Source of the DNA: an uncultured Gammaproteobacteria bacterium
GTDB taxonomy: Bacteria > Patescibacteriota > Microgenomatia > UBA8517
DNA: 64,000 nt
Direction: 5' to 3'
Assembly: GCA_964488535.1 (NCBI GenBank)
Contig: CAZAUT010000003.1
Location: forward strand, 2,232-66,231
This document shows positions 29,701 to 59,038 of this stretch, piece after piece. Below the pieces are notes generated by a model that was given only the letters and a program-made list of their open reading frames with translations, made no database searches and was not told the origin of the DNA. Position numbers and translations under genes: made by a program. Every line of letters starts with the position of its first letter. Position 1 is the stretch's first letter.

Positions 29701-29906
29701 TTACTAAAGCGTTGTATTAACTTCAATCTTGAAGTATAATTTACCCTGTTCTTTACCATAATTCCTAATTCATAATTCGTAATTCAGGAAAAATGTGCGG
29801 GGTAGTGTCCCGAAAAAATTTCGCTTTGCTCAATTCAACGGGACGAGCAGATGAAACTTCGCATACATTGGTAATTTTAATCGTATTTTAACAACTTAAT
29901 CATATG

Positions 29907-30227
29907 TGCGGGGTAGTGTACGGCTGCACGGAAGGCTCAAAATGGGCTTCCCGCTTAGCGGGATAAATTTGGCTATATCGGTGAAACCTAAGCTTTATAG
30001 AGTATGGCAACGCCGAGGAAAGACTACGTTCAAATTTTATGAAAGTAGAATCCGTAGAGACTATACGCCAAAGCACGTTCATATAAACTGAATGTACAAG
30101 ACATAGTCCGACACTCCCAAATACCTTTTGGTATTTGACAGTAAACTGTATAGTTCATTGCAAGAAATTGGAGATTACAGAATAAGCATAATCTTCCAGA
30201 TCAGGTTCAACTCCTGACCCCGCAACA
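29907..30227 (+). ncRNA. ssrA: tmRNA (SsrA)
   Basis: The 5' acceptor strand TGCGGGG pairs with the 3' CCCCGCA. The 3' T-arm CAGGTTCAACTCCTG is near-identical to the E. coli tmRNA T-arm GGGTTCAACTCCCGC. A candidate tag ORF at 30007-30042 (GCA ACG CCG AGG AAA GAC TAC GTT CAA ATT TTA TGA, giving ATPRKDYVQIL) aligns in position and codons with E. coli ANDENYALAA. Confidence 0.6.
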
Positions 30228-32462: not shown

Positions 32463-32534
32463 GTGGGCTGAGATGGGTTCGAACCATCGACATCTACTTT
32501 ATAAGAGTAGCGCTCTACCACTGAGCTATCAGCC
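32463..32534 (-). tRNA. tRNA-Ile (TAT anticodon)
   Basis: The minus strand reads GGGCTGATAGCTCAGTGGTAGAGCGCTACTCTTATAAAGTAGATGTCGATGGTTCGAACCCATCTCAGCCCA. The cloverleaf is complete, with anticodon loop CTTATAA. Confidence 0.7.
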
Positions 32535-32568
32535 CTTAAATTTATTGACATGTCAAACTCCGTTTGCC

Positions 32569-41936: not shown

Positions 41937-44243
41937 TTAAAGCCTGCACTTACTCCACCCGCATTCTTTGCAACTTCTACATCCTCCCTCAAATTCCAAA
42001 ACTCCTTTGCACTCCGGGCAGTTTTTTTCTTCTTTCTCCAATTCGGGCTTATACTTTTCACCGGTATTTATTACTTGATCCTCCTTGCTGCCATCTCTGT
42101 AAACCGTAATGCCCTTACATCCGAGTTTCCATGCCAGCATGTACGATTTCTCAACCTCCTCAACCGTCGCCGTGTTTCTGAAGTTTATGGTTTTTGACAC
42201 AGCATTATCGGCATATTTCTGAAACGCTGCCTGTATTCTTACATGCCACTGGGGATCAATGTCGTGTGTTGTAACAAAAACTTTTCTGATGTCACCGGGA
42301 AGTCCGGGTACATTTTGAATTGAACCGTGATTTTTGATAATTTTTTCGATCAACGTATCACTAAACAGATTTTTTTCTTTTAATATTTCCTCAAAAACCG
42401 GATTAATATAATAAAGTTTTCTGGTAGATCTATTCTTGTGATCCTCGTTATAGAAAGAACTCCTTGTATAAACAAGGGCAAAACTTGGCTCGACACCGCT
42501 TGTTGTATCTCCAATCATCGATACTGTACCTGTTGGAGCAATAGTAATCATCGTACAATTACGATATTTCTCTGCGGATCCTTTGTAGGTCGATATGTCC
42601 CAATTGGGAAATACACCGCGAGTTTTGGCTAATTCAAGCGAAGCTTCTTCGGCTTTGCGTTTAACAAATTTTGCAATCTTATCCGCAATCCGTACACCGT
42701 CGGGGCTGTTATAGGCAATATTCAATTTAAAAAGTGTTTCCGCAAAACCTACCATTCCCAAACCTATTTTCCTGTTTCCGTACTTTACGATTTTTTCGGT
42801 TTCGGGTAAAACATAGTAGTTTGTTTCAATCATATTGTCCAAAAAACGGACAAGTGTTTTAACCGTATCTCCCAACTCTTCCCAGTTAATTTCCCATCCG
42901 CCATTCTTCCTGATTAAATGGTTTGCTAAATGAACGGAAGAAAGGTTGCATGACTCGTAAGGTAACAAAGGTTGTTCACCACATGGATTCGTTGCATTTA
43001 ACACTCCAAGGCTTGGAGTGAAGTTATCCTCTTCCATCCGGTCTAAAAAGACCATCCCGGGATCGCCGGTTTTCCACGCATGTTCACAAATTTCATGAAA
43101 AAGTTTTCGGGCAGAAACTTTCTTCACCGCCACTCCATCCCGTGGATTCACCAGAGAAAACTTCTTATCAGCCACGACCGCTTCCATAAACTCATTTGTC
43201 GCACCGACAGAAATGTTAAAATTCTTCATATTTCCGTCTTCGTCCTTGATTTTAATGAACTCAAAAATGTCAGGGTGGTTAACATTTAAAATACCCATAT
43301 TTCCACCGTGTTTTTTGGATCCCTGCATAATTTTTGACAAGGCTGCACTGTAAACCTGCAAAAAGTCCACAGGCCCTGAAGCGGTATTTGGAACATTTCT
43401 TACCTTGTCACCCTTGAAACGTATATCACTGAAGTTAAATCCTGTTCCTCCAAAGTTTTTTTGAATGAGAGCTGCCTCGCCAAGTGTCTGGAAAATTTTA
43501 GAAATAGAATCTTCAATTTTCAAGACGAAGCATGGGGAAAGTTGCTGCAAACAATGGTCATTACCGGCTTCATACATAGCACTGGTAGTGCATATAAATT
43601 TAAACTTAACCATTTTATTAAAAAATACCTGTGCTGCCAATTCGACATCTTTTTCGTTACCCCAATTAATTTCTGTTTTGGCGATATATTTCGCAACTCT
43701 CCAGAAAATCTGTCCCGGAGTCTCTTCCGGCTTTCCGTCAGCACCCAACTTGGAACATCTGGCAACAAGGGTTGTCCTGGCATTGCCGGTCATTTCCGGT
43801 TCGCGGATGATAAATTCGTCTTTTTTTGACTGTTCCTTCCTTTCTTTGTATAAAATATAATATCTGGCCGTTTCGAAATAACCTTTCTGTGCAATGACAG
43901 GTTCAACAATGTTCCGGATTTCTAATGTGGAAATGACTGGTTTCTTAAAAATTAAAAGCTTGGATAGGACTTCTTTTAATATGGCGTTTGAGTCCTCTTT
44001 GGAATAGGACATCGTATCCTTGCCGGCTAAGATAATACTTTTTACTATTTTATTCCAAATGAATAATTGTGTCTGTCCGTCCGATTTTATTACTTTTTTT
44101 ATTTTTAATTTGGGTAAATTTGCTTTTATGTAATCTTTGTCTTTTTTCATATCAACACTCCGAATAACCGCATCCGTGACACGTCTTGCAGCCCATTTCG
44201 TGAACCAAAGTTGCGTTTCCGCAAGACGGACAAAAATCGGCAT
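41937..44243 (-). CDS. nrdJ: class II ribonucleotide reductase paralogue 2, with ATP-cone
   Basis: ATP-cone VIKSDGQTQLF, ATNPCGEQPL, and a C-terminal CPECK..CRSCKECG. The start is probably the Met at ~44153. Confidence 0.85.
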   Translation of the reverse strand: MPIFVRLAETQLWFTKWAARRVTDAVIRSVDMKKDKDYIKANLPKLKIKKVIKSDGQTQLFIWNKIVKSIILAGKDTMSYSKEDSNAILKEVLSKLLIFKKPVISTLEIRNIVEPVIAQKGYFETARYYILYKERKEQSKKDEFIIREPEMTGNARTTLVARCSKLGADGKPEETPGQIFWRVAKYIAKTEINWGNEKDVELAAQVFFNKMVKFKFICTTSAMYEAGNDHCLQQLSPCFVLKIEDSISKIFQTLGEAALIQKNFGGTGFNFSDIRFKGDKVRNVPNTASGPVDFLQVYSAALSKIMQGSKKHGGNMGILNVNHPDIFEFIKIKDEDGNMKNFNISVGATNEFMEAVVADKKFSLVNPRDGVAVKKVSARKLFHEICEHAWKTGDPGMVFLDRMEEDNFTPSLGVLNATNPCGEQPLLPYESCNLSSVHLANHLIRKNGGWEINWEELGDTVKTLVRFLDNMIETNYYVLPETEKIVKYGNRKIGLGMVGFAETLFKLNIAYNSPDGVRIADKIAKFVKRKAEEASLELAKTRGVFPNWDISTYKGSAEKYRNCTMITIAPTGTVSMIGDTTSGVEPSFALVYTRSSFYNEDHKNRSTRKLYYINPVFEEILKEKNLFSDTLIEKIIKNHGSIQNVPGLPGDIRKVFVTTHDIDPQWHVRIQAAFQKYADNAVSKTINFRNTATVEEVEKSYMLAWKLGCKGITVYRDGSKEDQVINTGEKYKPELEKEEKNCPECKGVLEFEGGCRSCKECGWSKCRL

Positions 44244-46662
44244 GACGGCTTAACAGAGACAATTGATTATTTCTGTCGTCACTCAGTCCTTTTGTACCGT
44301 AATTGTAAGACAGACCATTGCCGTTAATAAGTAATTTCTCCTGAACCGGCTGGTTATACTCCTTCTTGTTTTCCGGAATCATTCCAACATCCAGAGATAA
44401 GGCTCTGGCAATTGCATCCGGCAGTGATAATATTCTGTCCGATCCAAAACCAACACTTCTTGACCCGCCTATGCCTTGAAGTTGTTCTATTATAATTGCA
44501 GCTCTCTCTCTGCCGGTTAAGTTGCTGCCCAATCTTAAGGATTTGGAAATGACACGACCTAAGGCTTCCGCCATTGCCTGCACGTCACTGCCCGCCCTTC
44601 CGATATTAATGAATGTCTCAACCGGACTTCCCGTTTCATCATGATTTACAGTAATAAATGCTGTCCCCACAGGTGTTTTCAAACGGTAGGTTGAACCGGA
44701 CACTTTAATTGGCCGTTCCCAAATTGCTAAAAACGATTTTGATTCGCCGTTTTTGTATACTCCATTTTTTGATTCCGCCTTCTCCTCTTTCTTTTCATTT
44801 CTTATCAACGTCCCTTCCCTTGATCCTTCTCTCATGTAAGATATTCCCTTGCATCCGGTGTCGTAGGCAAGCATGTAAAGCTTCTTTACATCGTGCGCTG
44901 TGTGAGACTTCGGAGCGTTCACGGTCTTACTGATAGAAGAATCGGTATAGGTTTGTATTAATGCCTGAATTTTTACGTGCTCATCAGGGGATAAATTGTC
45001 GGCAGTTACAAAGTAGGACGGGATATTTTCCTTTCCGTTGTTTTCTATCCATTCCTGATAGAGCGGATGATACATCGTCCTCTCCCCCAACCGGTCTTTC
45101 TGAATATAGGAGAATGAGAAAACAGGTTCTATTCCCGAAGATACTCCTGCAAGAAGTGCTATTTTTCCGGTCGGAGCTTCCGTTGTCAGAAAACAATTTC
45201 TAATACCCTGACGGCGAATTTTTTGTCTGATCTCCTTCGGCAAATTTTTAATAAAACCACCCCGAAGAAAATTCTCTTTGTTGTAAGCAGGAAAAACACC
45301 CTTCTCTTTTGCTAAATCACTTGAGCAGTCATAAGATGTATCACGAAGGGTTTTGTAAATTTTTTCTATAAGTTTTAATGATTCTTCCGAGCCGTAGCGA
45401 ATCTTCAATTTAATGAGCATGTCGGCAAGTCCCATTGTTCCAAGACCAAGTCTTCTTTCTCTTTTTTGTGTCTCTTCGATTTCGGGGTAAAGATAATTTT
45501 CCGAATCAACTGCATTATCCAAAAATCTCACTCCCACTTTAATAGTCTTAGTAAAATCATCAAAGTCAAATACATCTCCGTTAACAAAGGCAGACAGATT
45601 AAGTGAACTTAAATTGCATACCCCCCAAGCCGGTAATCCCTGTTCACCGCATACGTTTGTTGCAATTACTTTTTCAAAATACCAGGAATTGTTCATATCA
45701 TTGTATCTGTCCATATACACAACACCCGGTTCGGCCGATTCCCAAGCCGATTCGCATATTCGGTCCCACAGCTCACGCGCTTTGATTGTTTTATAAATTT
45801 TTGTGGGATAACTTTTTCTTTTCCACTCGCTCAAATCGCCGCTCCATTCTTGTCTATACTTCTCAAAATCGGTATCCGGAAATTCCAAATGCCAGTCTTT
45901 GTCGTTTTTCACTGCCTCCATAAACGAGTCCGACAAACAGATGCTCAGATTGGCTCCGGCAATTTTTCCCGTTTCTTTCTTTATCGAAATAAATTCTTCA
46001 ATGTCGGGATGCCAATCCCAAAGCATTATCATTAACGCCCCGCGCCTTGTCCCTCCCTGCTGAATAATGTCATGAACGGCAACAGAATAAAGGTTTGCCC
46101 ATGAAACAGCACCCGAACTTGTTCCGTTAACGCTTTTTAAATATGATCCGTTTGGCCTGAGCGTGGAAATGTTGAAACCTACTCCTCCGCCCCGTGCGCT
46201 AATTTCCGTGACCTGCTCCAAAGTTTTTATAATTCCGCCTCTCGTATCCTGAGGGTTTGGTATAACAAAGCAATTAATCATTGTTGCATTGGAACCGCTG
46301 CCTGCTGCCGTCAAAAATCTTCCGGCCGGACAAAATTTAAAGTCCACCATGGCTTCATAAAAATTCTTTTCCCATACTTTTTTTTCTTTGGAGGTTTTTT
46401 CCGCTTGAGCAAGCGCAAAGGATACACGATGCCACATCTGTTCGGGGTATTTTTCCATTGGTTTTCCTTTCTCGTTTTTTAGAGAATATCTGTCAAGAAA
46501 CAACTGTTTTCTTATCCCCGTTAAGGAAGTGCCCTCATGAACTGTTACAAGATGACGAATACTGTTGTATTTTGAACCCAAAGTTTTTGATAACTTTTTT
46601 ATTTTCATAATTTTAAAATCACAAAGTACACGGGATAAATCGGGAAGAATGGCGGATAACAC
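44152..46662 (-). CDS. nrdJ: class II ribonucleotide reductase paralogue 3, no ATP-cone, long C-terminal extension
   Basis: NCFVIP, ATNVCGEQGL (Pro to Val in the NPCGE motif), and a C-terminal CPSCG..CKTCHGCG. The start is probably MKIKKLSK at ~46611. Confidence 0.8.
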   Translation of the reverse strand: MLSAILPDLSRVLCDFKIMKIKKLSKTLGSKYNSIRHLVTVHEGTSLTGIRKQLFLDRYSLKNEKGKPMEKYPEQMWHRVSFALAQAEKTSKEKKVWEKNFYEAMVDFKFCPAGRFLTAAGSGSNATMINCFVIPNPQDTRGGIIKTLEQVTEISARGGGVGFNISTLRPNGSYLKSVNGTSSGAVSWANLYSVAVHDIIQQGGTRRGALMIMLWDWHPDIEEFISIKKETGKIAGANLSICLSDSFMEAVKNDKDWHLEFPDTDFEKYRQEWSGDLSEWKRKSYPTKIYKTIKARELWDRICESAWESAEPGVVYMDRYNDMNNSWYFEKVIATNVCGEQGLPAWGVCNLSSLNLSAFVNGDVFDFDDFTKTIKVGVRFLDNAVDSENYLYPEIEETQKRERRLGLGTMGLADMLIKLKIRYGSEESLKLIEKIYKTLRDTSYDCSSDLAKEKGVFPAYNKENFLRGGFIKNLPKEIRQKIRRQGIRNCFLTTEAPTGKIALLAGVSSGIEPVFSFSYIQKDRLGERTMYHPLYQEWIENNGKENIPSYFVTADNLSPDEHVKIQALIQTYTDSSISKTVNAPKSHTAHDVKKLYMLAYDTGCKGISYMREGSREGTLIRNEKKEEKAESKNGVYKNGESKSFLAIWERPIKVSGSTYRLKTPVGTAFITVNHDETGSPVETFINIGRAGSDVQAMAEALGRVISKSLRLGSNLTGRERAAIIIEQLQGIGGSRSVGFGSDRILSLPDAIARALSLDVGMIPENKKEYNQPVQEKLLINGNGLSYNYGTKGLSDDRNNQLSLLSRHADFCPSCGNATLVHEMGCKTCHGCGYSEC

Positions 46663-49642: not shown

Positions 49643-52099
49643 GTGTCACAATGTAATATAATATGCAACATGAAGAAGAAAGAAAGACATAAACAAAAAA
49701 CAGGGATCGAAAAGCGAAAAGTAGAAAGCAATAAGAAATTAAAAAGTATATTGAATGTTGTATATCGTATGTTGGGGAAAGCAGTAAACAGAAAGCAGAA
49801 AGCAAAAAACAAGAAAACAGTAAACAAAAAGCAGAAAGCTCTCCTTCGTATGAAGCTACGGACAAGCGAAGTAATTAACAAAAAGCTAAAGACAAGAATC
49901 CCGCGGAAATCTTTTTTGCATAATAAAAAATTCCGCATCATTATCGCCTGTGGTCTATTGACTGCAGTCGTTGCCTTCACAACGTGGCTTTTTTGGGGAC
50001 TTCCCCTTCCTACAAAACTACTGAAATCACAGGTTCCGGTTTCCACAAAATTATATGATCGTAACGGAGAACTAATATACGAGATATATGCCGATAAAAG
50101 AAGCTCACCCGTTAATATTGACGAACTGCCGTCCTACGTCATTGACGCCACAATCTCAATTGAAGACAAGGATTTTTACAGACACCACGGCTTCTCAATT
50201 TCCGGTATTACGCGTGCTGCCTATAACACGCTTTTCAAGCAAAAGCTGCAGGGCGGTTCAACTTTAACGCAACAACTGGTGAAGAATGTACTCCTGACGC
50301 CCGAACGTACCGTCAAAAGAAAGATGCGGGAATTGGTAATTACGGTTATCGTCGAAATACTGTATTCCAAAGAGCAAATCCTTGATCTTTATTTTAATCA
50401 GATTCCTTATGGTTCCACCGCTTACGGAATAGGATCCGCAAGTGAATTGTATTTTGATAAAGATGCCAAGGATCTTACTCTTGCAGAAGCTGCACTTTTG
50501 GCAGGAATTACCGCAGCACCGACAAAATACTCTCCCTTTGGGGCTCATCCGGAGATCGCTAAATCAAGACAGGAAATTGTTCTTGCCCGTATGGTCGAGG
50601 ACGGGAAGATAACGCAGGAGGATGCAGATGAGGCCAAATCACAAGAACTGAAATTCGCCGAACCGCAAAAGTTTAACGCTCCTCATTTTTCTCTCTGGGT
50701 AAAAGAACTTCTGGCTGATAAATACGGGGACACACTGGTTGAACAAGGAGGTCTTCGTGTTACAACTACCCTTGATATGGATCTTCAAGAATACGCGGAA
50801 GGCACGGTCTCGGGTGAGTTGGCGAAATTGAAAAAACAAAATGTCGGAAACGGTGCAGTACTTGTCACCCGCCCCGGGTCAGGGGAAATTCTTGCAATGG
50901 TTGGATCAAAAGATTATTTCGCCAAAGACGAAGATGGAAAAGTAAATGTCATTTTTGCCAACCGCCAACCGGGATCATCCATAAAACCCATAAACTATGC
51001 TCTGGCTCTGAAAGACAGAAAGATCACTCTTTCCACTCCCCTGGCTGATGTGCCGACTTGTTTCTCGGTCTACGGACAAAAGGCGTACTGTCCGGTGAAT
51101 TACGACGGATCGTTCCATGGAGCAGTCCAGCCGAGATTTGCATTGGGAAATTCCTACAACAGTCCCGCGGTAAGAGTCTTGGCTCTTAATGGTTTGGAAC
51201 ACTTTATAGATTTTGCCAATCAGATGGGATTAACGACGTTTATTGATCCAAAAAATTACGGATTGTCGCTAACTCTTGGCGGGGGCGAAGTAAAACCGTA
51301 TGACATGGCAACCGCCTTTGGTGTTTTTGCAAACGAGGGAGTAAAAATACCTCTCAATCCGATACTTAAAATTACAGACTGGAAAGGAGAAGTGTACGAA
51401 GAAGTTGATCCCAACAAGATTGACGGAACAAGAGTACTTGATCCTGAAGTGACATTTTTAATCTCTCACACCCTTCACGACAATAATGCAAGATCGGCTG
51501 CTTTCGGCAGCAACTCATACTTGGTAGTCAAAAACCATTCCGAGGTGTCTGTAAAAACCGGAACAACCAACGATAGAAAGGATAACTGGACGATCGGTTA
51601 TACTTCTCAAATTCTTACTCTCGTCTGGGTCGGGAACAATGATAATTCGGAAATGAGCGGAGCCGTTTCCGGTGTCTCAGGAGCATCGCCAATCTGGAAC
51701 TCTGTAATTAAATATGCACTTGATAAGGCCGAAAAAAGCTATTACAACCAAGAAGATGATGGGCACGCCTGGCCGAGACAGCCTGAAGGAATCGTCGGGA
51801 AAAATGTCTGTGCAACAACTGGAAACATACCAACCAATCCTGATTCTCCAGAGTGTGGAACTAGGTTTGAATATTTCATCAAAGACGCAATTGGTGCGAA
51901 TATCCAGGCGGGACAAAAGGATGTACTTGTATTCAAAGATACAAGACAGCTTGCCAATGAAGATGCCCTTCCCGAACAGGTAGAAGTACAAAACCACCCC
52001 TTCCTTCTCGACCCTTTGGGGACTCTTGTCTGTCTCGATTGTCCCCTGGCAAGTTCATCTGCTAAAATCAGCTACCCTTTGATTGCTGCGCCCAACTAA
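49643..52099 (+). CDS. class A penicillin-binding protein (transglycosylase + transpeptidase)
   Basis: GT51 motifs EDKDFYRHHGFS and GGSTLTQQLVKN. Transpeptidase motifs RQPGSSIKP, SYN and KTGTT. Confidence 0.85.
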   Translation: MSQCNIICNMKKKERHKQKTGIEKRKVESNKKLKSILNVVYRMLGKAVNRKQKAKNKKTVNKKQKALLRMKLRTSEVINKKLKTRIPRKSFLHNKKFRIIIACGLLTAVVAFTTWLFWGLPLPTKLLKSQVPVSTKLYDRNGELIYEIYADKRSSPVNIDELPSYVIDATISIEDKDFYRHHGFSISGITRAAYNTLFKQKLQGGSTLTQQLVKNVLLTPERTVKRKMRELVITVIVEILYSKEQILDLYFNQIPYGSTAYGIGSASELYFDKDAKDLTLAEAALLAGITAAPTKYSPFGAHPEIAKSRQEIVLARMVEDGKITQEDADEAKSQELKFAEPQKFNAPHFSLWVKELLADKYGDTLVEQGGLRVTTTLDMDLQEYAEGTVSGELAKLKKQNVGNGAVLVTRPGSGEILAMVGSKDYFAKDEDGKVNVIFANRQPGSSIKPINYALALKDRKITLSTPLADVPTCFSVYGQKAYCPVNYDGSFHGAVQPRFALGNSYNSPAVRVLALNGLEHFIDFANQMGLTTFIDPKNYGLSLTLGGGEVKPYDMATAFGVFANEGVKIPLNPILKITDWKGEVYEEVDPNKIDGTRVLDPEVTFLISHTLHDNNARSAAFGSNSYLVVKNHSEVSVKTGTTNDRKDNWTIGYTSQILTLVWVGNNDNSEMSGAVSGVSGASPIWNSVIKYALDKAEKSYYNQEDDGHAWPRQPEGIVGKNVCATTGNIPTNPDSPECGTRFEYFIKDAIGANIQAGQKDVLVFKDTRQLANEDALPEQVEVQNHPFLLDPLGTLVCLDCPLASSSAKISYPLIAAPN

Positions 52100-52170: not shown

Positions 52171-52401
52171 GTGTTATTATTAAATATGGCAAACACACCT
52201 TCCCCTTCCGACAACCATGCGTCATATATTGACCCGAGCGGAAAAGAAGTTGAAAAGTCTTATCAAAAAGTCGGTTATCTGCCCAACAGGACATTTACAA
52301 TCATACTTTTGATAATATTTCTTGTTACCGCAGTTTCCGCAATAGTGATAACCGATTATAATTACAGAAGGGAAAGAGACAGGATCATGTCGCGTAAATA
52401 G
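52171..52401 (+). CDS. small membrane protein, hypothetical
   Basis: 76 aa with a single TM helix. Confidence 0.25.
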   Translation: MLLLNMANTPSPSDNHASYIDPSGKEVEKSYQKVGYLPNRTFTIILLIIFLVTAVSAIVITDYNYRRERDRIMSRK

Positions 52402-52404
52402 ATA

Positions 52405-53100
52405 TTGGCAAAAAGCGTAAAATCTATGTTTATTAACCGGCTTCGCCTTTTTCAGAATCTTCTCGTTCTTTCGTTGGTTACCTTAATTACCATTGTCTGG
52501 TCCACGGTTATTTTTTTATCTCATCAAAATGAACAATTATTTAAACAAGGAAAAATCATTTCCTCATATGAAGAATGTGCTGGTTCAGGAAATGTAATTT
52601 TGGAATCCTACCCTTCCATATGTATCACCAAAGACGGACAGCGGTTTGTACAGCAGTTGCAGACTTCAGTAAATGAACCTGATAACTGGCAGGAATATGT
52701 TGACAGTGATTACAATTTCTCGGTATCCCATCCGTCTTACATCACACCTCAATTCGGCACAAATGATCTTGTCTTAAAGTCAATCTATTTTCATGAAACC
52801 GGAGAAGAAACACGATTCTGGATGACAATTGAAGTGAATCAAAGTAGTTTGGAATTTTCCAATGCGGTAGAAAACGAACTTGCGATAATCTCGCACGGCA
52901 ACGGAAAATTGTTAAAAAAAGCCGATATTTCAATTCAGAACTATAACTCCATCAGGGCAGATTATGATTCACAAAGTAGTGGTGGAAAACCGATTTCGCA
53001 TATATATATCGACAAAAAACCATACATCTACGCCATACATACTTACACCAAGGACGTTGACCAAATTCTCTCTACCTTTCGATTTGAATCTGATCAATAA
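52405..53100 (+). CDS. membrane-anchored hypothetical protein, paralogue 1 of 3
   Basis: Conserved N-terminal anchor FQNLLVLSLVTLITIVWSTVIFLSHQN and C-terminal DQILSTFRFESDQ. Confidence 0.5.
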   Translation: MAKSVKSMFINRLRLFQNLLVLSLVTLITIVWSTVIFLSHQNEQLFKQGKIISSYEECAGSGNVILESYPSICITKDGQRFVQQLQTSVNEPDNWQEYVDSDYNFSVSHPSYITPQFGTNDLVLKSIYFHETGEETRFWMTIEVNQSSLEFSNAVENELAIISHGNGKLLKKADISIQNYNSIRADYDSQSSGGKPISHIYIDKKPYIYAIHTYTKDVDQILSTFRFESDQ

Positions 53101-53103
53101 TAC

Positions 53104-54300
53104 TTGAATTTAATGAATATTAAACTTCGCTTTCTTCAAAACCCTCTTGCATTGTCTGCCATAACTTTAATAGTTATCGTCTGGTCAACAGTTTCTTTTC
53201 TTGCATACCAAAATAAACTTCTAAAAATTCAAGAGAAACATTTTGAAAAAAATATCCCAAAAAGTATATCCGAAAGCATTTCTACTGCACCACCTTTTCC
53301 ATTCGGATCATTTTCTATATCATCCATTCCCAACTGGCGTAAGTATTCGAATTCTGAATTAAACTATTCTATTGAATTTCCAAACGATTGGAACTTTTCT
53401 ATTAACGACACATACCCAGAAAATCCGATTTTCTATATCTCTAAAGACAAATTAAGCAATTGGCATGAATGCCATAGAAAAACATCTTGTTTGGTAATCC
53501 AAACAAACATGGGTGGACGTGGCGGTTATATGTTCATGACAAAAACTCGTCAATCCTTATACAATCAAAATAACGTATCTGGAATACGAACCGACATTCT
53601 CGCATATGATGGAGGTGTTTACAGTTTTTTTATTAATATTGACGAACATATTCAACGACCACTGTGGAAACAGGGAACAATAGACATTTTTCCCAAAATC
53701 ATTAATGAAAAATTTTCCGAAACGGAAATGTTGCATCGTACCGGCCAAACCTCATTTGATTCACGGCTTGATAGCATTGCAACAGATACTGAAGATTTAT
53801 CTCTCCTTAGCCAAATCCTCTCCACATTTAAATTCACCGACAACAACCATAACAATTCGCTAAAGTGTATAAATGCTTTTGCGAACTCCAAAATTGAACT
53901 GCCCAACCACTCCATCCTCAATGGAACAGTAAGTGGGCAGGTTTTTTGGCCGTCTGAAAAACTACCAATAGGCATTAAAGTATGTGCATATAACACTTTA
54001 AACTATGCTAGATATTGCACCTCAGAAATCTTAAACGAAAATCCCTTCTATTCCTTATCTATCCCTGAAGGAAACTATTATATTTTTTCACTCTCCGCAG
54101 ACGGTTTAATTGGGGTGGATGGAATGTTAACAAAAAACAATGATCGCTATGTAGATACGGATACCGCAGGTTCAATAATTAGTGAAGCTCCTTTGCATAT
54201 ACATGTCGGCGCAAACACTACAACAGAAAACATAGATGTCGGTGATCATGTAATTGGTAAAAATACTCTTTCCTGTCCGGAAGTAAAAAACAACAAATGA
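53104..54300 (+). CDS. membrane-anchored hypothetical protein, paralogue 2 of 3
   Basis: Anchor LQNPLALSAITLIVIVWSTVSFLAYQN and C-terminal SQILSTFKFTDNN, with a longer central region. Confidence 0.5.
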   Translation: MNLMNIKLRFLQNPLALSAITLIVIVWSTVSFLAYQNKLLKIQEKHFEKNIPKSISESISTAPPFPFGSFSISSIPNWRKYSNSELNYSIEFPNDWNFSINDTYPENPIFYISKDKLSNWHECHRKTSCLVIQTNMGGRGGYMFMTKTRQSLYNQNNVSGIRTDILAYDGGVYSFFINIDEHIQRPLWKQGTIDIFPKIINEKFSETEMLHRTGQTSFDSRLDSIATDTEDLSLLSQILSTFKFTDNNHNNSLKCINAFANSKIELPNHSILNGTVSGQVFWPSEKLPIGIKVCAYNTLNYARYCTSEILNENPFYSLSIPEGNYYIFSLSADGLIGVDGMLTKNNDRYVDTDTAGSIISEAPLHIHVGANTTTENIDVGDHVIGKNTLSCPEVKNNK

Positions 54301-54339
54301 TGTTTGTTCAAACTCTAAATAAACTGATACCCAAGTAGT

Positions 54340-55074
54340 ATGTTATCCAACAAATTTCATTTTTTTCAAAACACCCTCACCCTTTCTGCTGTTGCTTTTA
54401 TCATTACCTTCTGGTCAACAGTTTCTTTTCTTGCATACCAAAACAATCAATTTAAAGAATATTCAGATGGATACAAAAGAGGTATAGACATATTTAAAAC
54501 AACACCAGCCCCTTCACCGGTTCCTACAATTTATCAACTGCAAATAACTGAGGATAACAATTGGTATGTTTTTAAAAATGAAGAATATCATTACACAATT
54601 AGCTATCCTAAAAATTTTAGGCTAATTGGTCGAGACCCTGCATCTATTGAAATAGACTTAGACCAAACGGAGGGGGCACCAACAAGATGGTTAAGAATTA
54701 ATGTTGTTTCCCCGGAAAATATTTCTCAATACCAAATACTTAACAATTTAGAAGTTGGTGAGACCACGGTTGATAAAGCAAATGAATTCAATACATGGAA
54801 AAGACTGAATAACAGAGATATTGCCAATGTTTCAGCAAAAGTGTTTATTAACGAAAAACCGTGGGAACTTCCGATACTAAAACTGATTATTCTTGAACAT
54901 AACAATGTCTTTCTAATAATAAAATATGTTCCATATAACAGTACCCAAGAGTCTATAAAAAAACAACCAGATGACCCTGAAGCCCGGATTGATTTTGTTG
55001 GTATCTTTGACCAAATTCTCTCCACCTTTCGATTTGACTCAGAGTTGCAACATTCAAATTTACCCGCTGAATGA
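54340..55074 (+). CDS. membrane-anchored hypothetical protein, paralogue 3 of 3
   Basis: Anchor FQNTLTLSAVAFIITFWSTVSFLAYQN and C-terminal DQILSTFRFDSELQ. Confidence 0.5.
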   Translation: MLSNKFHFFQNTLTLSAVAFIITFWSTVSFLAYQNNQFKEYSDGYKRGIDIFKTTPAPSPVPTIYQLQITEDNNWYVFKNEEYHYTISYPKNFRLIGRDPASIEIDLDQTEGAPTRWLRINVVSPENISQYQILNNLEVGETTVDKANEFNTWKRLNNRDIANVSAKVFINEKPWELPILKLIILEHNNVFLIIKYVPYNSTQESIKKQPDDPEARIDFVGIFDQILSTFRFDSELQHSNLPAE

Positions 55075-55159: not shown

Positions 55160-55480
55160 GCTTTACTTGCATTTTCCCTTCAATTACTCGATTGCTTACT
55201 CACTTAATCGCTTAATCGCTTCGTCGCCTTATCCCTTTGTATTTTTATTTCCTTCCCTGACAATACTTAATACATAATACGTTATACACTTTCCCCATTC
55301 CCCCATACATGCTTCATCCTACTTACTACATTCTGCATACTACGTGCTTTCTTTCTCCCTATATACTATATACAGCATACAATATACTGTTTCTTCCCTA
55401 GTATCCCAATATACTCCCTTGACCTCTTTTGTTATCTTTTTATCCTTTTAATCCTATTTATTTTTAAATATTTAGGTACT
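55160..55480. repeat. intergenic tandem-repeat arrays (cgcttaatcg, tacgttatac, tatacagcatacaatatac families)
   Basis: Direct reading shows several period 7-10 families in succession upstream of the second PBP gene. Confidence 0.55.
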
Positions 55481-55493
55481 AAATTGAATTAAA

Positions 55494-57815
55494 ATGGGTT
55501 ACTGCCAAACCCGAAAACCAAATGTTAAACAATTTTCAAAATTAGCAAAAAAAGGCCTCAAATTCTTGAAAGGCCTTGTGCTTTTGGTCGGCAAACCGTT
55601 CTACCTTATTTTCCTGCTTCTTCTTACCGTTCTAAATTCCGTTCTAAATTTCGCGTTTTCAAGAAAGTATAACAATTATAATCGTTATAATAATTATAAT
55701 TTTTATATTAAACTCCTTCTTACCTCTTCTACTCTTCTACTCTTCTACTCTTCTACTCTTTCTGGTCTTCCTTCCCCCAAAACCCTCTCTACAACCCATC
55801 CTCCTCTTTCGACAAAGATCTATGATAGGGACGGCTTTTTGCTTTATACAATTTACGATAATGAAAACAGGTCGCTTGTTTCAATTAAAGACATACCCGC
55901 CCATCTGATTCTGGCTACTCTGGCAATCGAAGATAACGAGTTCTACAAACATCCCGGTTTTTCTGCAAAGGGAATACTCCGTGCCCTATCGAAAAATATC
56001 AGTGACGGTACAATGTACGGAGGTTCAACAATTACCCAGCAGCTCGTTAAAAATACACTTCTTTCTTCCGAAAAAAGTATCGAAAGAAAAATAAAGGAAC
56101 TTTTTCTGGCTATAGAGATCGAACTTTTATACCCCAAAAACAGAATTCTTGAAATGTATCTCAACACGTCTCCTTACGGCGGTCCGGTATACGGCATCGG
56201 TCAGGCTGCAAGGGTTTATTTCGACAAAGATGTCGAAAAATTGTCGTTGGCAGAATCGGCTTTTCTGGCGGGTATTCCAAAAAGTCCCAATATATATTCG
56301 CCGTTTATCGGTGATATCGATAGAGGACTGGAAAGACAAAAAGAAGTGCTTTCTCTCATGCTTTCAAATGGTTTCATAACTTCTGTTCAATTTGAAGAAG
56401 CAATGTCCGAAACACTTTCGTTCTCAGGCAATAAAATAAAAATATATTCTCCTCACTTTGTTATGTATGTAAAAGATCTTCTTGAAAAGGATTTCGGAAA
56501 GGATACTGTCTCCCGCGGAGGACTGGAGGTTACGACAACTCTTGATATAAATATCCAAAAGGCAGCCGAAAAAGTTGTATCCGAGGAAATTGCAAATCTC
56601 AAAAACCAGAAGGTCACAAACGCTGCGGTAATTGTTCTCAACCCAAAGAATGGAGATATTCTGGCAATGATCGGATCCGCGGATTATTTTAATAAGACAA
56701 ATAATGGCAATGTAAACGCCGTTCTTTCGCTTCGTCCTCCGGGTTCTTCAATTAAGGTTGTCAACTATGTATATGCTTTATCACACGGCTATACCGCTGC
56801 AACCGTTGTCGACGACTCCCCCGTCTCATATTCTTATTCCGGATCACCTCCCTACTCGCCGGTCAATTATGACAGAAAGTTTAAAGGAAAAATGACAGTC
56901 AGATCGGCGCTTGCACAGTCAAGGAATGTCCCTGCTGTTAAGATTCTTAATTCTTACGGAATCGAAAATATGATAGCCACGGGGAAGAGCATGGGTATCT
57001 CAACATGGGAAGAAAGCCAAAATTTCGGTCTTTCAATGACACTTGGAGGTGCAAATACAACTTTGTACGATCTTGCGGGTGTATACTCCGTCATTGCCAA
57101 TTACGGTGTAAAACCAAACATCAACCCGATTCTGTCTGTGAGGAACTACAACTCATTACTGCTTTCACAAAAGGCATGCGTCAGAAGCAATCATTCGGCG
57201 GTTTTACCGACTGTTCCGATACAAAAACTAAAAACTCTTGCAGATATTCCCCGTCTATCTCTCATATCACTCACAAGTGCATCATACTCGGCGGATTTTG
57301 AAAAAAATGATACCTGCAAAGTCAACTACGTCATAGATCCCAGAGTTGCGTTTATCATTACCGATATTCTAAAAGACAATAAGGCACGATCACCTGCATT
57401 CGGAGCAAACTCCCAGCTCACAATTAAAGACCATCCCGAGGTGGCAGTAAAAACCGGAACAAGTAATTCCATACGTGACAATGTCGCCATTGGTTATTCT
57501 CAAGATTATTTGGTGGCCGTGTGGGTGGGAAATAATGACAATTCGCCGATGAGTAATATTGCTTCCGGGGTTACCGGTGCAACGCCGATTTTTAATAAAA
57601 TAATGACAAAACTGCTTGAAAACGACGAAAGTAAGGATTGGGAAATCCCGTCAGGTTTGGTAAAACTGCCGGTTTGCACGTCCTTCAAAGTTCCCGACAG
57701 TGAAGAAATTATCGTCAAAAGATATGAGGAGTGGTTTTTGGAGGAAAATGTACCGAAAAATGTGTGTTTAAAAAAAACAACTAAACATTTGAAGGAAAGT
57801 GGGTTAATGCTCTGA
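55494..57815 (+). CDS. class A penicillin-binding protein, second copy, with in-frame repeat segments near the N-terminus
   Basis: EDNEFYKHPGFS, GGSTITQQLVKN, RPPGSSIKV and KTGTS. N-terminal YNNYNRYNNYNFY and SSTLLLFYSSTL are encoded by the aattataat and tcttctactc repeats. Confidence 0.85.
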   Translation: MGYCQTRKPNVKQFSKLAKKGLKFLKGLVLLVGKPFYLIFLLLLTVLNSVLNFAFSRKYNNYNRYNNYNFYIKLLLTSSTLLLFYSSTLSGLPSPKTLSTTHPPLSTKIYDRDGFLLYTIYDNENRSLVSIKDIPAHLILATLAIEDNEFYKHPGFSAKGILRALSKNISDGTMYGGSTITQQLVKNTLLSSEKSIERKIKELFLAIEIELLYPKNRILEMYLNTSPYGGPVYGIGQAARVYFDKDVEKLSLAESAFLAGIPKSPNIYSPFIGDIDRGLERQKEVLSLMLSNGFITSVQFEEAMSETLSFSGNKIKIYSPHFVMYVKDLLEKDFGKDTVSRGGLEVTTTLDINIQKAAEKVVSEEIANLKNQKVTNAAVIVLNPKNGDILAMIGSADYFNKTNNGNVNAVLSLRPPGSSIKVVNYVYALSHGYTAATVVDDSPVSYSYSGSPPYSPVNYDRKFKGKMTVRSALAQSRNVPAVKILNSYGIENMIATGKSMGISTWEESQNFGLSMTLGGANTTLYDLAGVYSVIANYGVKPNINPILSVRNYNSLLLSQKACVRSNHSAVLPTVPIQKLKTLADIPRLSLISLTSASYSADFEKNDTCKVNYVIDPRVAFIITDILKDNKARSPAFGANSQLTIKDHPEVAVKTGTSNSIRDNVAIGYSQDYLVAVWVGNNDNSPMSNIASGVTGATPIFNKIMTKLLENDESKDWEIPSGLVKLPVCTSFKVPDSEEIIVKRYEEWFLEENVPKNVCLKKTTKHLKESGLML

Positions 57816-57955: not shown

Positions 57956-59038
57956 TCATTTCCCATTGACTGCATCATAAACAATTTTTGACAATTCTGC
58001 AAATGCCTTGTCTGCTTCGTCTAGATCGGCATCTTTGCTCATAATCACAACAATATAGGGATTGTCTGCATATACAATTCCTGCATCATTGACCACTCCC
58101 GTTTCCCTACCGTATTTGTGGGCAATTTTAATTTTCGAAGGTAATCCCGCCGGAAGATGGTTTTCATACTTCGTATCCGTCAAATACGACAGTAGTTCGG
58201 TGGTATTTTTGTTGTTTAACAATTTACCTTCCCACAATTTTCGGAAAAATAACCCCACATCATAAGGTGTTGTTTCATTTGTATCGACACTCGTATCAAC
58301 CATACCAATATCATTAATTATTTCGTTCACTCTTTCCTCACCTAAAATTTTTACGCAAATATTAAAGGCTGTGTTGTCCGACTCCTTACCCATCAAACGG
58401 ATTAGTTCGCGGTAAGAAAGTTCGTACCCTGCCGGTTTATAATAAAGTGAACCTGACCCTTCAGCTTTATCTTCCTTTTTCAATTTATATAACGTTTTTA
58501 AATCCAGATTTTGTCTCTCTTCCTCGATATACATTCCTGCCATGACCGGAAGTTTTATCAGCGAAGCTGCCTGAAACATCTCTTTTTCTCTTACTCCGAA
58601 TTCATAAGAATCGTTGCCGTCTAAAACATAAACAAAAAGTCCGTATTCTCCCTGAAGCGGATCGGTATGTTTTATAAATTCTTCAACTGCACGGACGGAT
58701 ATGTTTTTTTCATTCCTCTTTCCGATTTCCACTGTCCTTTTTACCGATAAATCAATTTTGGGAAGTTTCAGGGCAAAGGGATTGTTTACCAATAATCCGC
58801 GTGAACGCGCAGAAAAATACAAAGACAGCCCAAATGTGAATACTATCAGAAAAAAAATTATTACTCTGTCAAGTGTTTTCCATGGACGTATAGGCTCCTT
58901 TCTCCTCCTTTTATTTTCAGGCTTCAGATCCTTGATTTTTTTTACCTTTAGGTTTTTCTCTTCCTGCTTTTCTTGCGCACTTTCGTCTTCTTTATTATCT
59001 TTAAGCTTAGTATTTTTATTTTTTCCGAATATTCCCAT
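57956..59038 (-). CDS. membrane-anchored class A beta-lactamase-like serine hydrolase
   Basis: Lys-rich N-terminus plus a TM helix, then AASLIKL (SxxK), ESDNTAF (SDN) and HKYG (KxG-like). Confidence 0.5.
   Translation of the reverse strand: MGIFGKNKNTKLKDNKEDESAQEKQEEKNLKVKKIKDLKPENKRRRKEPIRPWKTLDRVIIFFLIVFTFGLSLYFSARSRGLLVNNPFALKLPKIDLSVKRTVEIGKRNEKNISVRAVEEFIKHTDPLQGEYGLFVYVLDGNDSYEFGVREKEMFQAASLIKLPVMAGMYIEEERQNLDLKTLYKLKKEDKAEGSGSLYYKPAGYELSYRELIRLMGKESDNTAFNICVKILGEERVNEIINDIGMVDTSVDTNETTPYDVGLFFRKLWEGKLLNNKNTTELLSYLTDTKYENHLPAGLPSKIKIAHKYGRETGVVNDAGIVYADNPYIVVIMSKDADLDEADKAFAELSKIVYDAVNGK

What the first reader, a model, noticed from the sequence alone, without database searches (positions are those of the whole stretch)
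52405..55074. Three tandem paralogous membrane-anchored proteins of unknown function inserted between two class A PBP genes
All three share a conserved signal-anchor (F.QN.L.LS..LI.IVWSTV.FL..QN) and a conserved C-terminal motif (QILSTF+F(D/E)S). Their central regions differ in length and sequence (231, 398 and 244 aa). They sit between two bifunctional PBPs and near a membrane-anchored beta-lactamase-like hydrolase. That placement points to a lineage-specific periplasm-facing family linked to peptidoglycan synthesis, such as PBP regulators or scaffolds. The diversified middle with conserved ends also resembles surface-exposed variable proteins.
Basis: partly seen in the sequence, partly recalled or inferred. 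Interest (0 to 1): 0.6.

Follow-up and report, generated by a model that had tools for sequence, protein, structure and literature searches.

The report
Tandem membrane-anchored PsbP-like envelope proteins
The three genes are real tandem paralogues, but they are fast-evolving members of a very large PsbP-like family of membrane-tethered surface proteins in Patescibacteria, and their place between two penicillin-binding-protein genes is local gene order in one Woesebacteria clade, not a family-wide link to cell-wall synthesis.

The parts
52405..53100 (+). Gene 1 (231-aa ORF from TTG; probable start ATG 52426, giving 224 aa). Domain order: anchor, two-Cys module, PsbP-like body.
   Evidence: ORF. 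Aligned with its paralogues. Scores 65 bits against an HMM built only from PF18933-annotated proteins.
52564..52653 (+). Small two-Cys module of gene 1 (SYEECAGSGNVILESYPSICITKDGQRFVQ), inserted between anchor and body.
   Evidence: Read from the translation. Conserved in the L001 9132-9995 protein. No credible Pfam match.
52675..53091 (+). PsbP-like body of gene 1 (EPDNWQEY ... VDQILSTFRFESD).
   Evidence: Body extraction; HMM alignment.
53104..54300 (+). Gene 2 (398-aa ORF from TTG; probable start ATG 53113, giving 395 aa, identical to NCBI protein P0006). Domain order: anchor, divergent PsbP-like body, extra C-terminal domain.
   Evidence: Scores 54 bits. The AlphaFold model is poor (mean pLDDT 57).
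53323..53835 (+). PsbP-like body of gene 2, ending in QILSTFKF. The first half is predicted confidently and the second half is not.
53836..54297 (+). C-terminal 154-aa extension of gene 2: probably a CarboxypepD_reg-like or Ig-like beta-sandwich. It occurs as a repeated module in large proteins elsewhere.
   Evidence: 75 relatives at E<=0.001, several with 3-12 matched stretches. Two of them give CarboxypepD_reg matches of 31.5 and 34.8 bits against a 32.3 cutoff. No direct Pfam match. Beta strands in the model have low confidence.
54340..55074 (+). Gene 3 (244 aa). Domain order: anchor, Pro-rich linker, PsbP-like body.
54547..55038 (+). PsbP/Mog1-fold body of gene 3 (residues about 70-233). 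The N-terminal beta-hairpin carries NW..F.N..Y.Y.I.YP. The C-terminal helix plus short strand carries FDQILSTFRF.
   Evidence: Secondary structure and pLDDT; fold matches.
52438..52532 (+). Anchor-coding repeat, copy 1.
   Evidence: Direct-repeat family D1, 62% identical to the reference copy.
53122..53216 (+). Anchor-coding repeat, copy 2. It contains a 34-nt stretch (53180-53213) identical to 54410-54443 in gene 3.
   Evidence: Family D1 reference copy. The exact stretch is visible.
54352..54446 (+). Anchor-coding repeat, copy 3.
   Evidence: Family D1, 78% identical to the reference copy.
49643..52099 (+). Context: upstream class A PBP gene. The ORF is given as listed; the true start is probably further downstream.
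   Evidence: Transgly 2.2e-59 and Transpeptidase 1e-14.
55494..57815 (+). Context: downstream class A PBP gene.
   Evidence: Transgly 2.2e-58 and Transpeptidase 1.2e-20.
57956..59038 (-). Context: membrane-anchored Beta-lactamase2-family protein.
   Evidence: PF13354, E 1e-52. TM segment at residues 59-79.

Best explanation
The three genes are tandem duplicates encoding single-pass, N-terminally anchored proteins. Each body is a non-enzymatic PsbP/Mog1-fold domain, a divergent relative of Pfam PF18933 (PsbP_2), held by a short Pro/Ser/Thr-rich linker on what is most probably the outer face of the cytoplasmic membrane. They belong to a very large expansion of such proteins in Patescibacteria. 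The conserved ends have an ordinary structural explanation: the NW..Y...YP motif is the first beta-hairpin of the fold, and FDQILSTF.F is its closing helix and strand. The sheet and loops between them are free to vary. In every characterised member, the PsbP/Mog1 fold acts as a binding or adaptor module. Here the bodies diverge far faster than all neighbouring genes, and copy number differs between close relatives. The most likely role is therefore a set of membrane-tethered binding modules in the cell envelope that diversify against variable partners such as host-cell surface, phage or exogenous proteins, not a fixed cofactor of the flanking PBPs. In this Woesebacteria clade the paralogues also share an unusually conserved anchor with a Ser/Thr stripe on one helix face, which probably mediates a specific helix-helix contact in the membrane with an unidentified partner. 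Shown: gene structure, paralogy, fold, family relationship, distribution, divergence rates. Inferred: outward topology, binding function, diversifying selection, the anchor's helix-packing role.
Against: None of the three window proteins reaches any Pfam or NCBIfam threshold directly, so family membership rests on transitive profiles and on the fold. Only gene 3 gave a confident model. Gene 2's body is only half-confident, and gene 1 was not modelled. No PF18933 protein from Patescibacteria has a tested function, and nothing relevant was found in the held literature, so the binding role is extrapolated from distant fold relatives. Rapid divergence could reflect relaxed constraint and not diversifying selection. 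The strict co-location of the anchor subfamily with the PBP genes, and the strong anchor conservation, are not explained by a generic surface-protein role.
Confidence: 0.6

Rival explanations
1. The proteins are dedicated regulators or scaffolds of the flanking class A PBPs. In this view the conserved anchor docks onto a PBP transmembrane helix and the PsbP-like body contacts the PBP ectodomain.
Against: All such loci share more than 20 kb of synteny, so they amount to one evolutionary observation. The bodies are about 26% identical while the PBPs are 54-86% identical, which is not the pattern expected for a co-evolving specific partner. Copy number varies from 1 to at least 3. L016 and L022 have the two PBP genes adjacent with nothing between them, and L008 lacks the downstream PBP. 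The wider family shows no PBP linkage: 13 of 18 plus 4 of 4 loci have none nearby. Non-coding gaps of 305 and 419 nt separate the cluster from the PBP genes.
Confidence: 0.12
2. The proteins are an array of immunity or neutraliser proteins against exogenous envelope-targeting toxins such as peptidoglycan hydrolases or lipases. This would be analogous to the PsbP/Mog1-fold T6SS immunity proteins Tsi3 and TplEi, with diversification tracking the toxins.
Against: The fold similarity is generic to the whole superfamily, and PsbP and Mog1 score as well or better. No toxin or effector gene is adjacent here. T6SS is not known in Patescibacteria (my own knowledge, not tested here). The family's size, thousands of clusters with several per genome, suggests a broader role.
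Confidence: 0.08
3. The genes are drifting duplicates under relaxed constraint with no specific individual function. In this view the cluster is a duplication-prone variable spot, and gene 2 in particular is partly degenerate.
For: The second half of gene 2's body is predicted with pLDDT below 50. Contig L028 lacks gene 2's body and 3' domain. A frame-shifted QILSTFKF remnant follows a member's stop codon in L005. The gene content of the slot varies, including a toxin-antitoxin insertion.
Against: All three ORFs are intact. The hairpin and end motifs are invariant across very divergent sequences. The anchor is under strong conservation. Gene 3 folds confidently. L028 may be an assembly chimera at a 34-nt exact repeat.
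Confidence: 0.1

Closest known systems
Pfam PF18933 (PsbP_2, 'PsbP-like protein'), named 'PsbP-related protein' by NCBI in Patescibacteria (for example P0047 from Candidatus Gottesmanbacteria)
   Same: Same domain family by transitive profile. Same N-terminal NWKTY..YGFSF.YP hairpin and FDQILSTFKF end. Same architecture of N-terminal hydrophobic anchor, Pro/Thr linker and body. Same tendency to form tandem arrays.
   Different: The window proteins fall below the Pfam threshold. They carry a strongly conserved, polar-striped anchor that is specific to one Woesebacteria clade. Gene 1 adds a two-Cys module and gene 2 adds a beta-sandwich-like C-terminal domain.
Solved PsbP/Mog1-fold proteins: BT_1490 (3hlz), cyanobacterial PsbP/CyanoP (2xb3, 2lnj), plant PsbP and PNSL1, Mog1 (1jhs, 5yfg)
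   Different: Sequence identity is only 5-14%. There is no photosystem or Ran in this organism. The window proteins are tethered by an N-terminal TM helix.
Mycobacterial secreted and envelope PsbP-like proteins (Apa 5zxa, MTC28 4pws, LpqN 6e5d) and Salmonella DcrB (6e8a)
   Same: Extracytoplasmic PsbP-like domains of monoderm or envelope context, often preceded by Pro-rich segments, with adhesion or envelope-biogenesis roles (PDB descriptions).
T6SS immunity and adaptor proteins with the PsbP/Mog1 fold (Tsi3 4luq, TplEi 5h7y, EagT6 6xrf)
   Different: No cognate effector gene is adjacent. There is no evidence of a T6SS. The anchor type differs.
PBP activators and regulators (LpoA, LpoB, MacP, CozE and similar), from established knowledge
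   Same: They are lineage-specific, membrane-associated and extracytoplasmic-facing. The genes here sit beside class A PBP genes.
   Different: No sequence or fold relationship was found. Unlike known regulators, the bodies here are hypervariable, copy number varies, and the wider family is not PBP-linked.
Multigene variable surface protein families with a conserved leader and variable body, such as Mycoplasma Vlp, Vsp and Vsa (from my own knowledge)
   Same: A conserved N-terminal membrane-targeting segment is shared by tandem paralogues with highly divergent exposed regions. There is also a possible recombination between the conserved 5' segments (L028).
   Different: No invertible promoter, recombinase or simple-sequence tract was found. 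The anchor is a TM helix and not a lipobox. The variation seen is between lineages and was not shown to switch within a strain.

Membership tests
Pfam PF18933 PsbP_2 / PsbP-Mog1 superfamily | Direct match to the PF18933 (or PF01789) model at or above the gathering score (27 or 23.5 bits). | tested here: not met
   The three window proteins have no PsbP match at E<=1. The closest anchor-bearing relatives are sub-threshold: P0002 22.9 bits, L005b 16.1 bits, L001a 12.6 bits.
Pfam PF18933 PsbP_2 / PsbP-Mog1 superfamily | Homology to bona fide family members by profile, i.e. a transitive link. | tested here: met
   An HMM built from 42 proteins with precomputed PF18933, and no window sequences, scores w1 at 65 bits, w3 at 57 and w2 at 54 over anchor to end, while two control proteins give no hit. 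13 of 27 related bodies hit PF18933. Many hits carry PF18933.
Pfam PF18933 PsbP_2 / PsbP-Mog1 superfamily | PsbP/Mog1 alpha/beta sandwich fold. | tested here: met
Pfam PF18933 PsbP_2 / PsbP-Mog1 superfamily | Extracytoplasmic location, shown by a signal peptide, lipobox or anchor. | tested here: inconclusive
   An N-terminal 21-residue hydrophobic helix preceded by K/R residues is present, and Cys pairs occur in the gene 1 module and the gene 2 extension. Topology was not predicted with a dedicated tool or shown experimentally.
   13 of 18 GTDB loci and 4 of 4 extra loci have no PBP within 8-10 kb. L016 and L022 have adjacent PBPs without an insert. The anchor subfamily is PBP-adjacent only within one syntenic clade.
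   No complex prediction or experiment was available.
T6SS-type immunity proteins (Tsi3/TplEi-like) | Adjacent cognate effector or toxin gene. | tested here: not met
   The neighbours are PBPs, Beta-lactamase2, HEPN, Rce1-like and DUF5667. No effector-like gene lies within the cluster.
Phase- or antigen-variable surface protein multigene families | Conserved leader with hypervariable exposed region in tandem paralogues. | tested here: met
   Anchors are 54-96% identical and bodies about 26%. Copy number varies between close genomes.
Phase- or antigen-variable surface protein multigene families | A switching mechanism: invertible element, recombinase, simple-sequence tract or silent cassettes. 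| tested here: not met
   There are no significant inverted repeats and no tandem or simple repeats within or just upstream of the coding regions; weak ones occur only in the 55194-55461 spacer. No recombinase is adjacent. L028 may be a recombinant, but it could equally be an assembly chimera.

The most novel reading that the evidence does not exclude
The conserved, Ser/Thr-striped transmembrane anchor (LQNLLALSAVTLIITVWSTVSFLAYQN) may be a specific intramembrane docking or sorting signal. It could recruit interchangeable, rapidly diversifying PsbP-like ectodomains to a fixed membrane partner in this Woesebacteria clade. The partner might be the transmembrane helices of the two flanking class A PBPs, or the syntenic Rce1-like intramembrane protease might process the anchor. 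Recombination between the anchor-coding repeats, as possibly captured in L028, would then shuffle or delete ectodomain cassettes. This would be a cassette-like system for displaying variable surface modules at sites of cell-wall synthesis in an episymbiotic bacterium.
Probability: 0.08. Interest if true: 0.6.

Novelty: new member of a known kind. Interest (0 to 1): 0.25.

Why it matters
Patescibacteria have small genomes, yet they devote many genes to this PsbP-like, membrane-tethered family, and none of its members has a tested function. This locus is a clean example of how the family evolves: tandem duplication, structurally conserved ends, a very fast-evolving binding surface, added accessory domains, and a lineage-specific conserved anchor. 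If the proteins mediate contact with hosts or phages, or protect the envelope, they would be relevant to the episymbiotic lifestyle. As it stands, the finding mainly reassigns an 'unknown PBP-linked family' to a known fold and family and removes the suggested functional link to peptidoglycan synthesis.

Tried and rejected
(1) An anchor-only profile search (45 columns) against the 5.8-billion-protein set gave no hit at E<=0.01. The profile was too short and hydrophobic, and the search was wasted. (2) Direct Pfam and NCBIfam scans of the three proteins gave only spurious sub-threshold hits: HTH_DNAJC9, OorC, YeiB and FolD. (3) A profile search of solved-structure sequences with the body alignment gave only a chance hit to eS8, so fold comparison was needed. 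(4) The gene 2 model was too poor (pLDDT 57) to justify a fold search, so its extension was characterised by sequence instead, and only tentatively. (5) The AFDB50 Foldseek library was unavailable. (6) The promoter and terminator scan did not exceed shuffled expectation, so operon structure is inferred only from spacing: 3-12 nt and 39 nt within the trio, 305 and 419 nt to the PBP genes. (7) Rfam found nothing in or around the cluster. (8) Literature searches for PsbP with Patescibacteria and for PF18933 found nothing on this family's function. (10) I considered a type IV pilin-like class III signal for the anchor. I rejected it from reading the sequence: there is no G/F-T-L-I-E motif, and the hydrophobic stretch is a plain 21-residue TM segment. 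(11) I considered a cleavable signal peptide. It is unlikely because the H-region is long and there is no small-x-small site before YQN. This was not tested with a dedicated predictor.
Full report
OBSERVATION. The three ORFs exist exactly where stated: 52405-53100 (231 aa), 53104-54300 (398 aa) and 54340-55074 (244 aa), all on the + strand. They are separated by 3 and 39 nt. Non-coding gaps of 305 and 419 nt separate them from the flanking genes. The likely true starts are ATG 52426 for gene 1 and ATG 53113 for gene 2; NCBI's copy, P0006, begins at the latter. A three-way alignment gives 31 invariant columns, clustered in an N-terminal hydrophobic segment and in QILSTF.F. The anchor-coding DNA forms a three-copy direct-repeat family of 95 nt at 62-78% identity. 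Neither motif occurs elsewhere in the 64-kb window. Pfam confirms two class A PBPs (Transgly + Transpeptidase) on either side and a Beta-lactamase2 protein downstream on the opposite strand.

Two corrections apply. In the 398-aa protein the QILSTFKF motif is internal and is followed by a separate 154-aa region. Gene 1 carries an additional two-Cys module of about 30 aa between anchor and body, which is also present in its positional counterpart in a related genome.

WHAT THE BODY IS. Direct scans of Pfam and NCBIfam find nothing credible. A first homology search found only eight relatives, all from Woesebacteria or Patescibacteria. They share the same anchor, an NW.TY.N..Y.F...YP motif at the start of the body and FDQILSTF.F at its end, and two of them carry two such bodies in tandem.

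Bodies extracted from those loci and aligned were scanned member by member. 13 of 27 match Pfam PF18933 (PsbP_2, best E 2.3e-6) and 6 match PF01789 (PsbP). The body profile recovers at least 2,878 protein clusters at E<=0.001. Many carry precomputed PF18933, and NCBI names one of them 'PsbP-related protein'. An HMM that I built only from 42 PF18933-annotated hits, with no window sequence included, scores the window proteins at 65, 57 and 54 bits. The alignments run from the anchor to the end motif, and two control proteins from the window do not score.

The body is therefore a PsbP/Mog1-fold domain and a divergent relative of PF18933. It does not pass the Pfam threshold directly, and I record that as a failed direct membership test alongside passed transitive and fold tests. 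In the model, the conserved N-terminal motif is the first beta-hairpin (strands 75-80 and 85-90). The QILSTF.F motif is the closing helix (219-228) plus a short strand. The 'conserved ends, variable middle' pattern thus has an ordinary structural explanation. The last step is inference, because I could not inspect contacts in the coordinates.

ACCESSORY PARTS. The gene 2 model is poor: mean pLDDT 57, with the second half of the body and the extension below 50. I therefore did not fold-search it. A full HMMER scan of 1.84 billion representatives with the 154-aa extension found 75 relatives at E<=0.001. These include large proteins in which the module recurs 3-12 times. Two of them give CarboxypepD_reg matches near threshold, at 31.5 and 34.8 bits against a cutoff of 32.3. 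The extension is therefore tentatively a CarboxypepD_reg-like or Ig-like beta-sandwich. The two-Cys module of gene 1 has no family match.

DISTRIBUTION AND THE PBP LINK. In the closest genomes the whole neighbourhood is syntenic: NrdR, DUF5667, Rce1-like, HEPN, PBP, [family genes], PBP, Beta-lactamase2, 2-Hacid_dh, PfkB and aldolase. The slot between the PBP genes holds two members in L001. In L005 it holds two members plus a YafQ-type toxin-antitoxin pair and a small membrane ORF. In L008 it holds one two-domain member, and there the downstream PBP is absent and the beta-lactamase-family gene is truncated. In L038 it holds at least three genes.

A degenerate DNA pattern for the anchor core found 13 metagenome stretches. 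Seven are this same slot in the same clade, and six are chance matches in frames full of stops. The conserved-anchor subfamily therefore occurs only here, but all occurrences share ancestry and synteny. They count as one evolutionary observation and not as repeated independent linkage.

In the more distant L016 and L022 the two PBP genes are directly adjacent with nothing between them, and a family member lies about 5 kb away beyond PfkB. Of the 18 GTDB loci, 13 have no PBP within 8 kb. Four further members on long contigs have none within 10 kb; they sit among glycolytic genes, Fic, or dense toxin-antitoxin clusters.

RATES. Between the window, L001 and L005, flanking proteins are 47-91% identical, with PBP_up at 74-86% and PBP_dn at 51-58%. 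Family anchors average 74% (54-96%) even between paralogues, and family bodies average 26%. Even the positional counterpart pair w1/L001a, which shares the Cys module, is only 31% identical in the body. The TM anchors of orthologous neighbours (DUF5667, both PBPs, Beta-lactamase2) are 38-71% identical over the same comparisons. The family anchor is therefore unusually conserved and the bodies are unusually fast-evolving.

The anchor is a 21-residue hydrophobic segment preceded by K/R residues. Its Ser/Thr residues (S9, T12, T16, S19, T20 of the consensus) fall within a 100-degree arc of a helical wheel. That pattern is compatible with a helix-helix packing face, which is an inference. Elsewhere in the family, paralogues within a genome also share their own lineage-specific anchors, as in L013, L014 and L018. 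Conserved anchors on divergent bodies are thus a general habit of the family and not a peculiarity linked to PBPs.

MECHANISM. In every characterised case the PsbP/Mog1 fold is a non-catalytic binding or adaptor module. Examples are PSII and NDH lumenal subunits, the Ran-binding protein Mog1, T6SS immunity and adaptor proteins, mycobacterial envelope and adhesion proteins, and DcrB (descriptions). My best account (confidence 0.6, made up of about 0.85 for identity and about 0.4 for role) is as follows. These are membrane-tethered, outward-facing binding modules that arose by tandem duplication and diversify quickly against variable partners. The clade-specific anchor mediates a conserved intramembrane contact.

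Rivals are a dedicated PBP regulator or scaffold (0.12), Tsi3-like immunity proteins (0.08) and drifting, largely functionless duplicates (0.10).

SIDE OBSERVATION ON RECOMBINATION. Genes 2 and 3 share an exact 34-nt stretch (53180-53213 and 54410-54443) encoding WSTVSFLAYQN. A 1,411-bp contig from another dataset (L028) is 100% identical to the window on both sides of a junction inside that stretch, joining the 5' end of gene 2 to the body of gene 3. It is either a genuine 1,230-bp deletion variant or a short-k-mer assembly chimera, and the tools here cannot tell which. No inverted repeats, simple-sequence tracts or adjacent recombinase were found that would indicate programmed switching.

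VERDICT. Novelty: new, divergent members of a known kind. Interest is low to moderate (0.25). The only unexplained feature is the conserved polar anchor shared by hypervariable ectodomains in a fixed genomic slot.

Noticed in passing
window 29891-30132 (+), flanks 29797-30226: Rfam group I intron match (RF00028, 51.9 bits against a gathering score of 50, full-length) in an ORF-free gap. The flanks contain a tRNA-like acceptor 5' half (GCGGGGT) and a T-arm plus ACCCCGCA. This is probably an intron-containing tRNA-Leu gene.
   Followed up: partly
L028 (Logan SRR14492171, 1,411 bp) against window 53180-53213 and 54410-54443: The contig is identical to the window but jumps from the 5' end of gene 2 to the body of gene 3 inside a 34-nt exact repeat. 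It is either a real 1,230-bp deletion by recombination between anchor-coding repeats or an assembly chimera.
   Followed up: partly
window 52186-52401 (+): An unlisted 71-aa ORF lies in the gap between the upstream PBP gene and gene 1. It has a Pro/Ser-rich N-terminus followed by one hydrophobic segment (TFTIILLIIFLVTAVSAIVI). An ORF of similar architecture (87-111 aa) lies just upstream of the downstream PBP gene in L005, and none was seen in L001. It is unclear whether this is a real gene.
   Followed up: partly
L005 11067 and L005 11145-11691: A QILSTFKF-coding remnant in another frame lies immediately after the stop codon of the two-domain member P0008, and a YafQ-type toxin plus a partner gene are inserted between the two family members. 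This suggests the slot between the PBP genes is a hotspot for rearrangement and insertion.
   Followed up: no
L008 1-3773: In this relative the downstream PBP gene and the 2-Hacid_dh gene are missing and the Beta-lactamase2 gene is reduced to a 123-aa fragment, so a family member is followed almost directly by PfkB. This could be a lineage-specific deletion or a mis-assembly.
   Followed up: no
window 32463-32535 (-): ARAGORN calls a tRNA-Ile with anticodon TAT (UAU). From my own knowledge, most bacteria instead decode AUA with a lysidine-modified CAU tRNA, so this is uncommon.
   Followed up: no
window 41937-46662 (-): Two large, slightly overlapping ribonucleotide-reductase-like ORFs (768 and 836 aa) lie in tandem downstream of NrdR. 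The same pair, with Ribonuc_red_lgN/lgC domains plus ATP-cone or TSCPD, is conserved in L001 and L005.
   Followed up: no
L018 494-10068; L013 7893-9430; L014 5560-7504: In other Microgenomates, paralogues in tandem arrays (six in L018) share their own lineage-specific anchor sequences, for example GFVHLFL.VV.VI.G.GGLLY.SWQ.G.IKT in L018 and KGFAPIIIILGIVLFL in L013, while the bodies diverge. Anchor conservation among paralogues is therefore a general trait of the family.
   Followed up: partly
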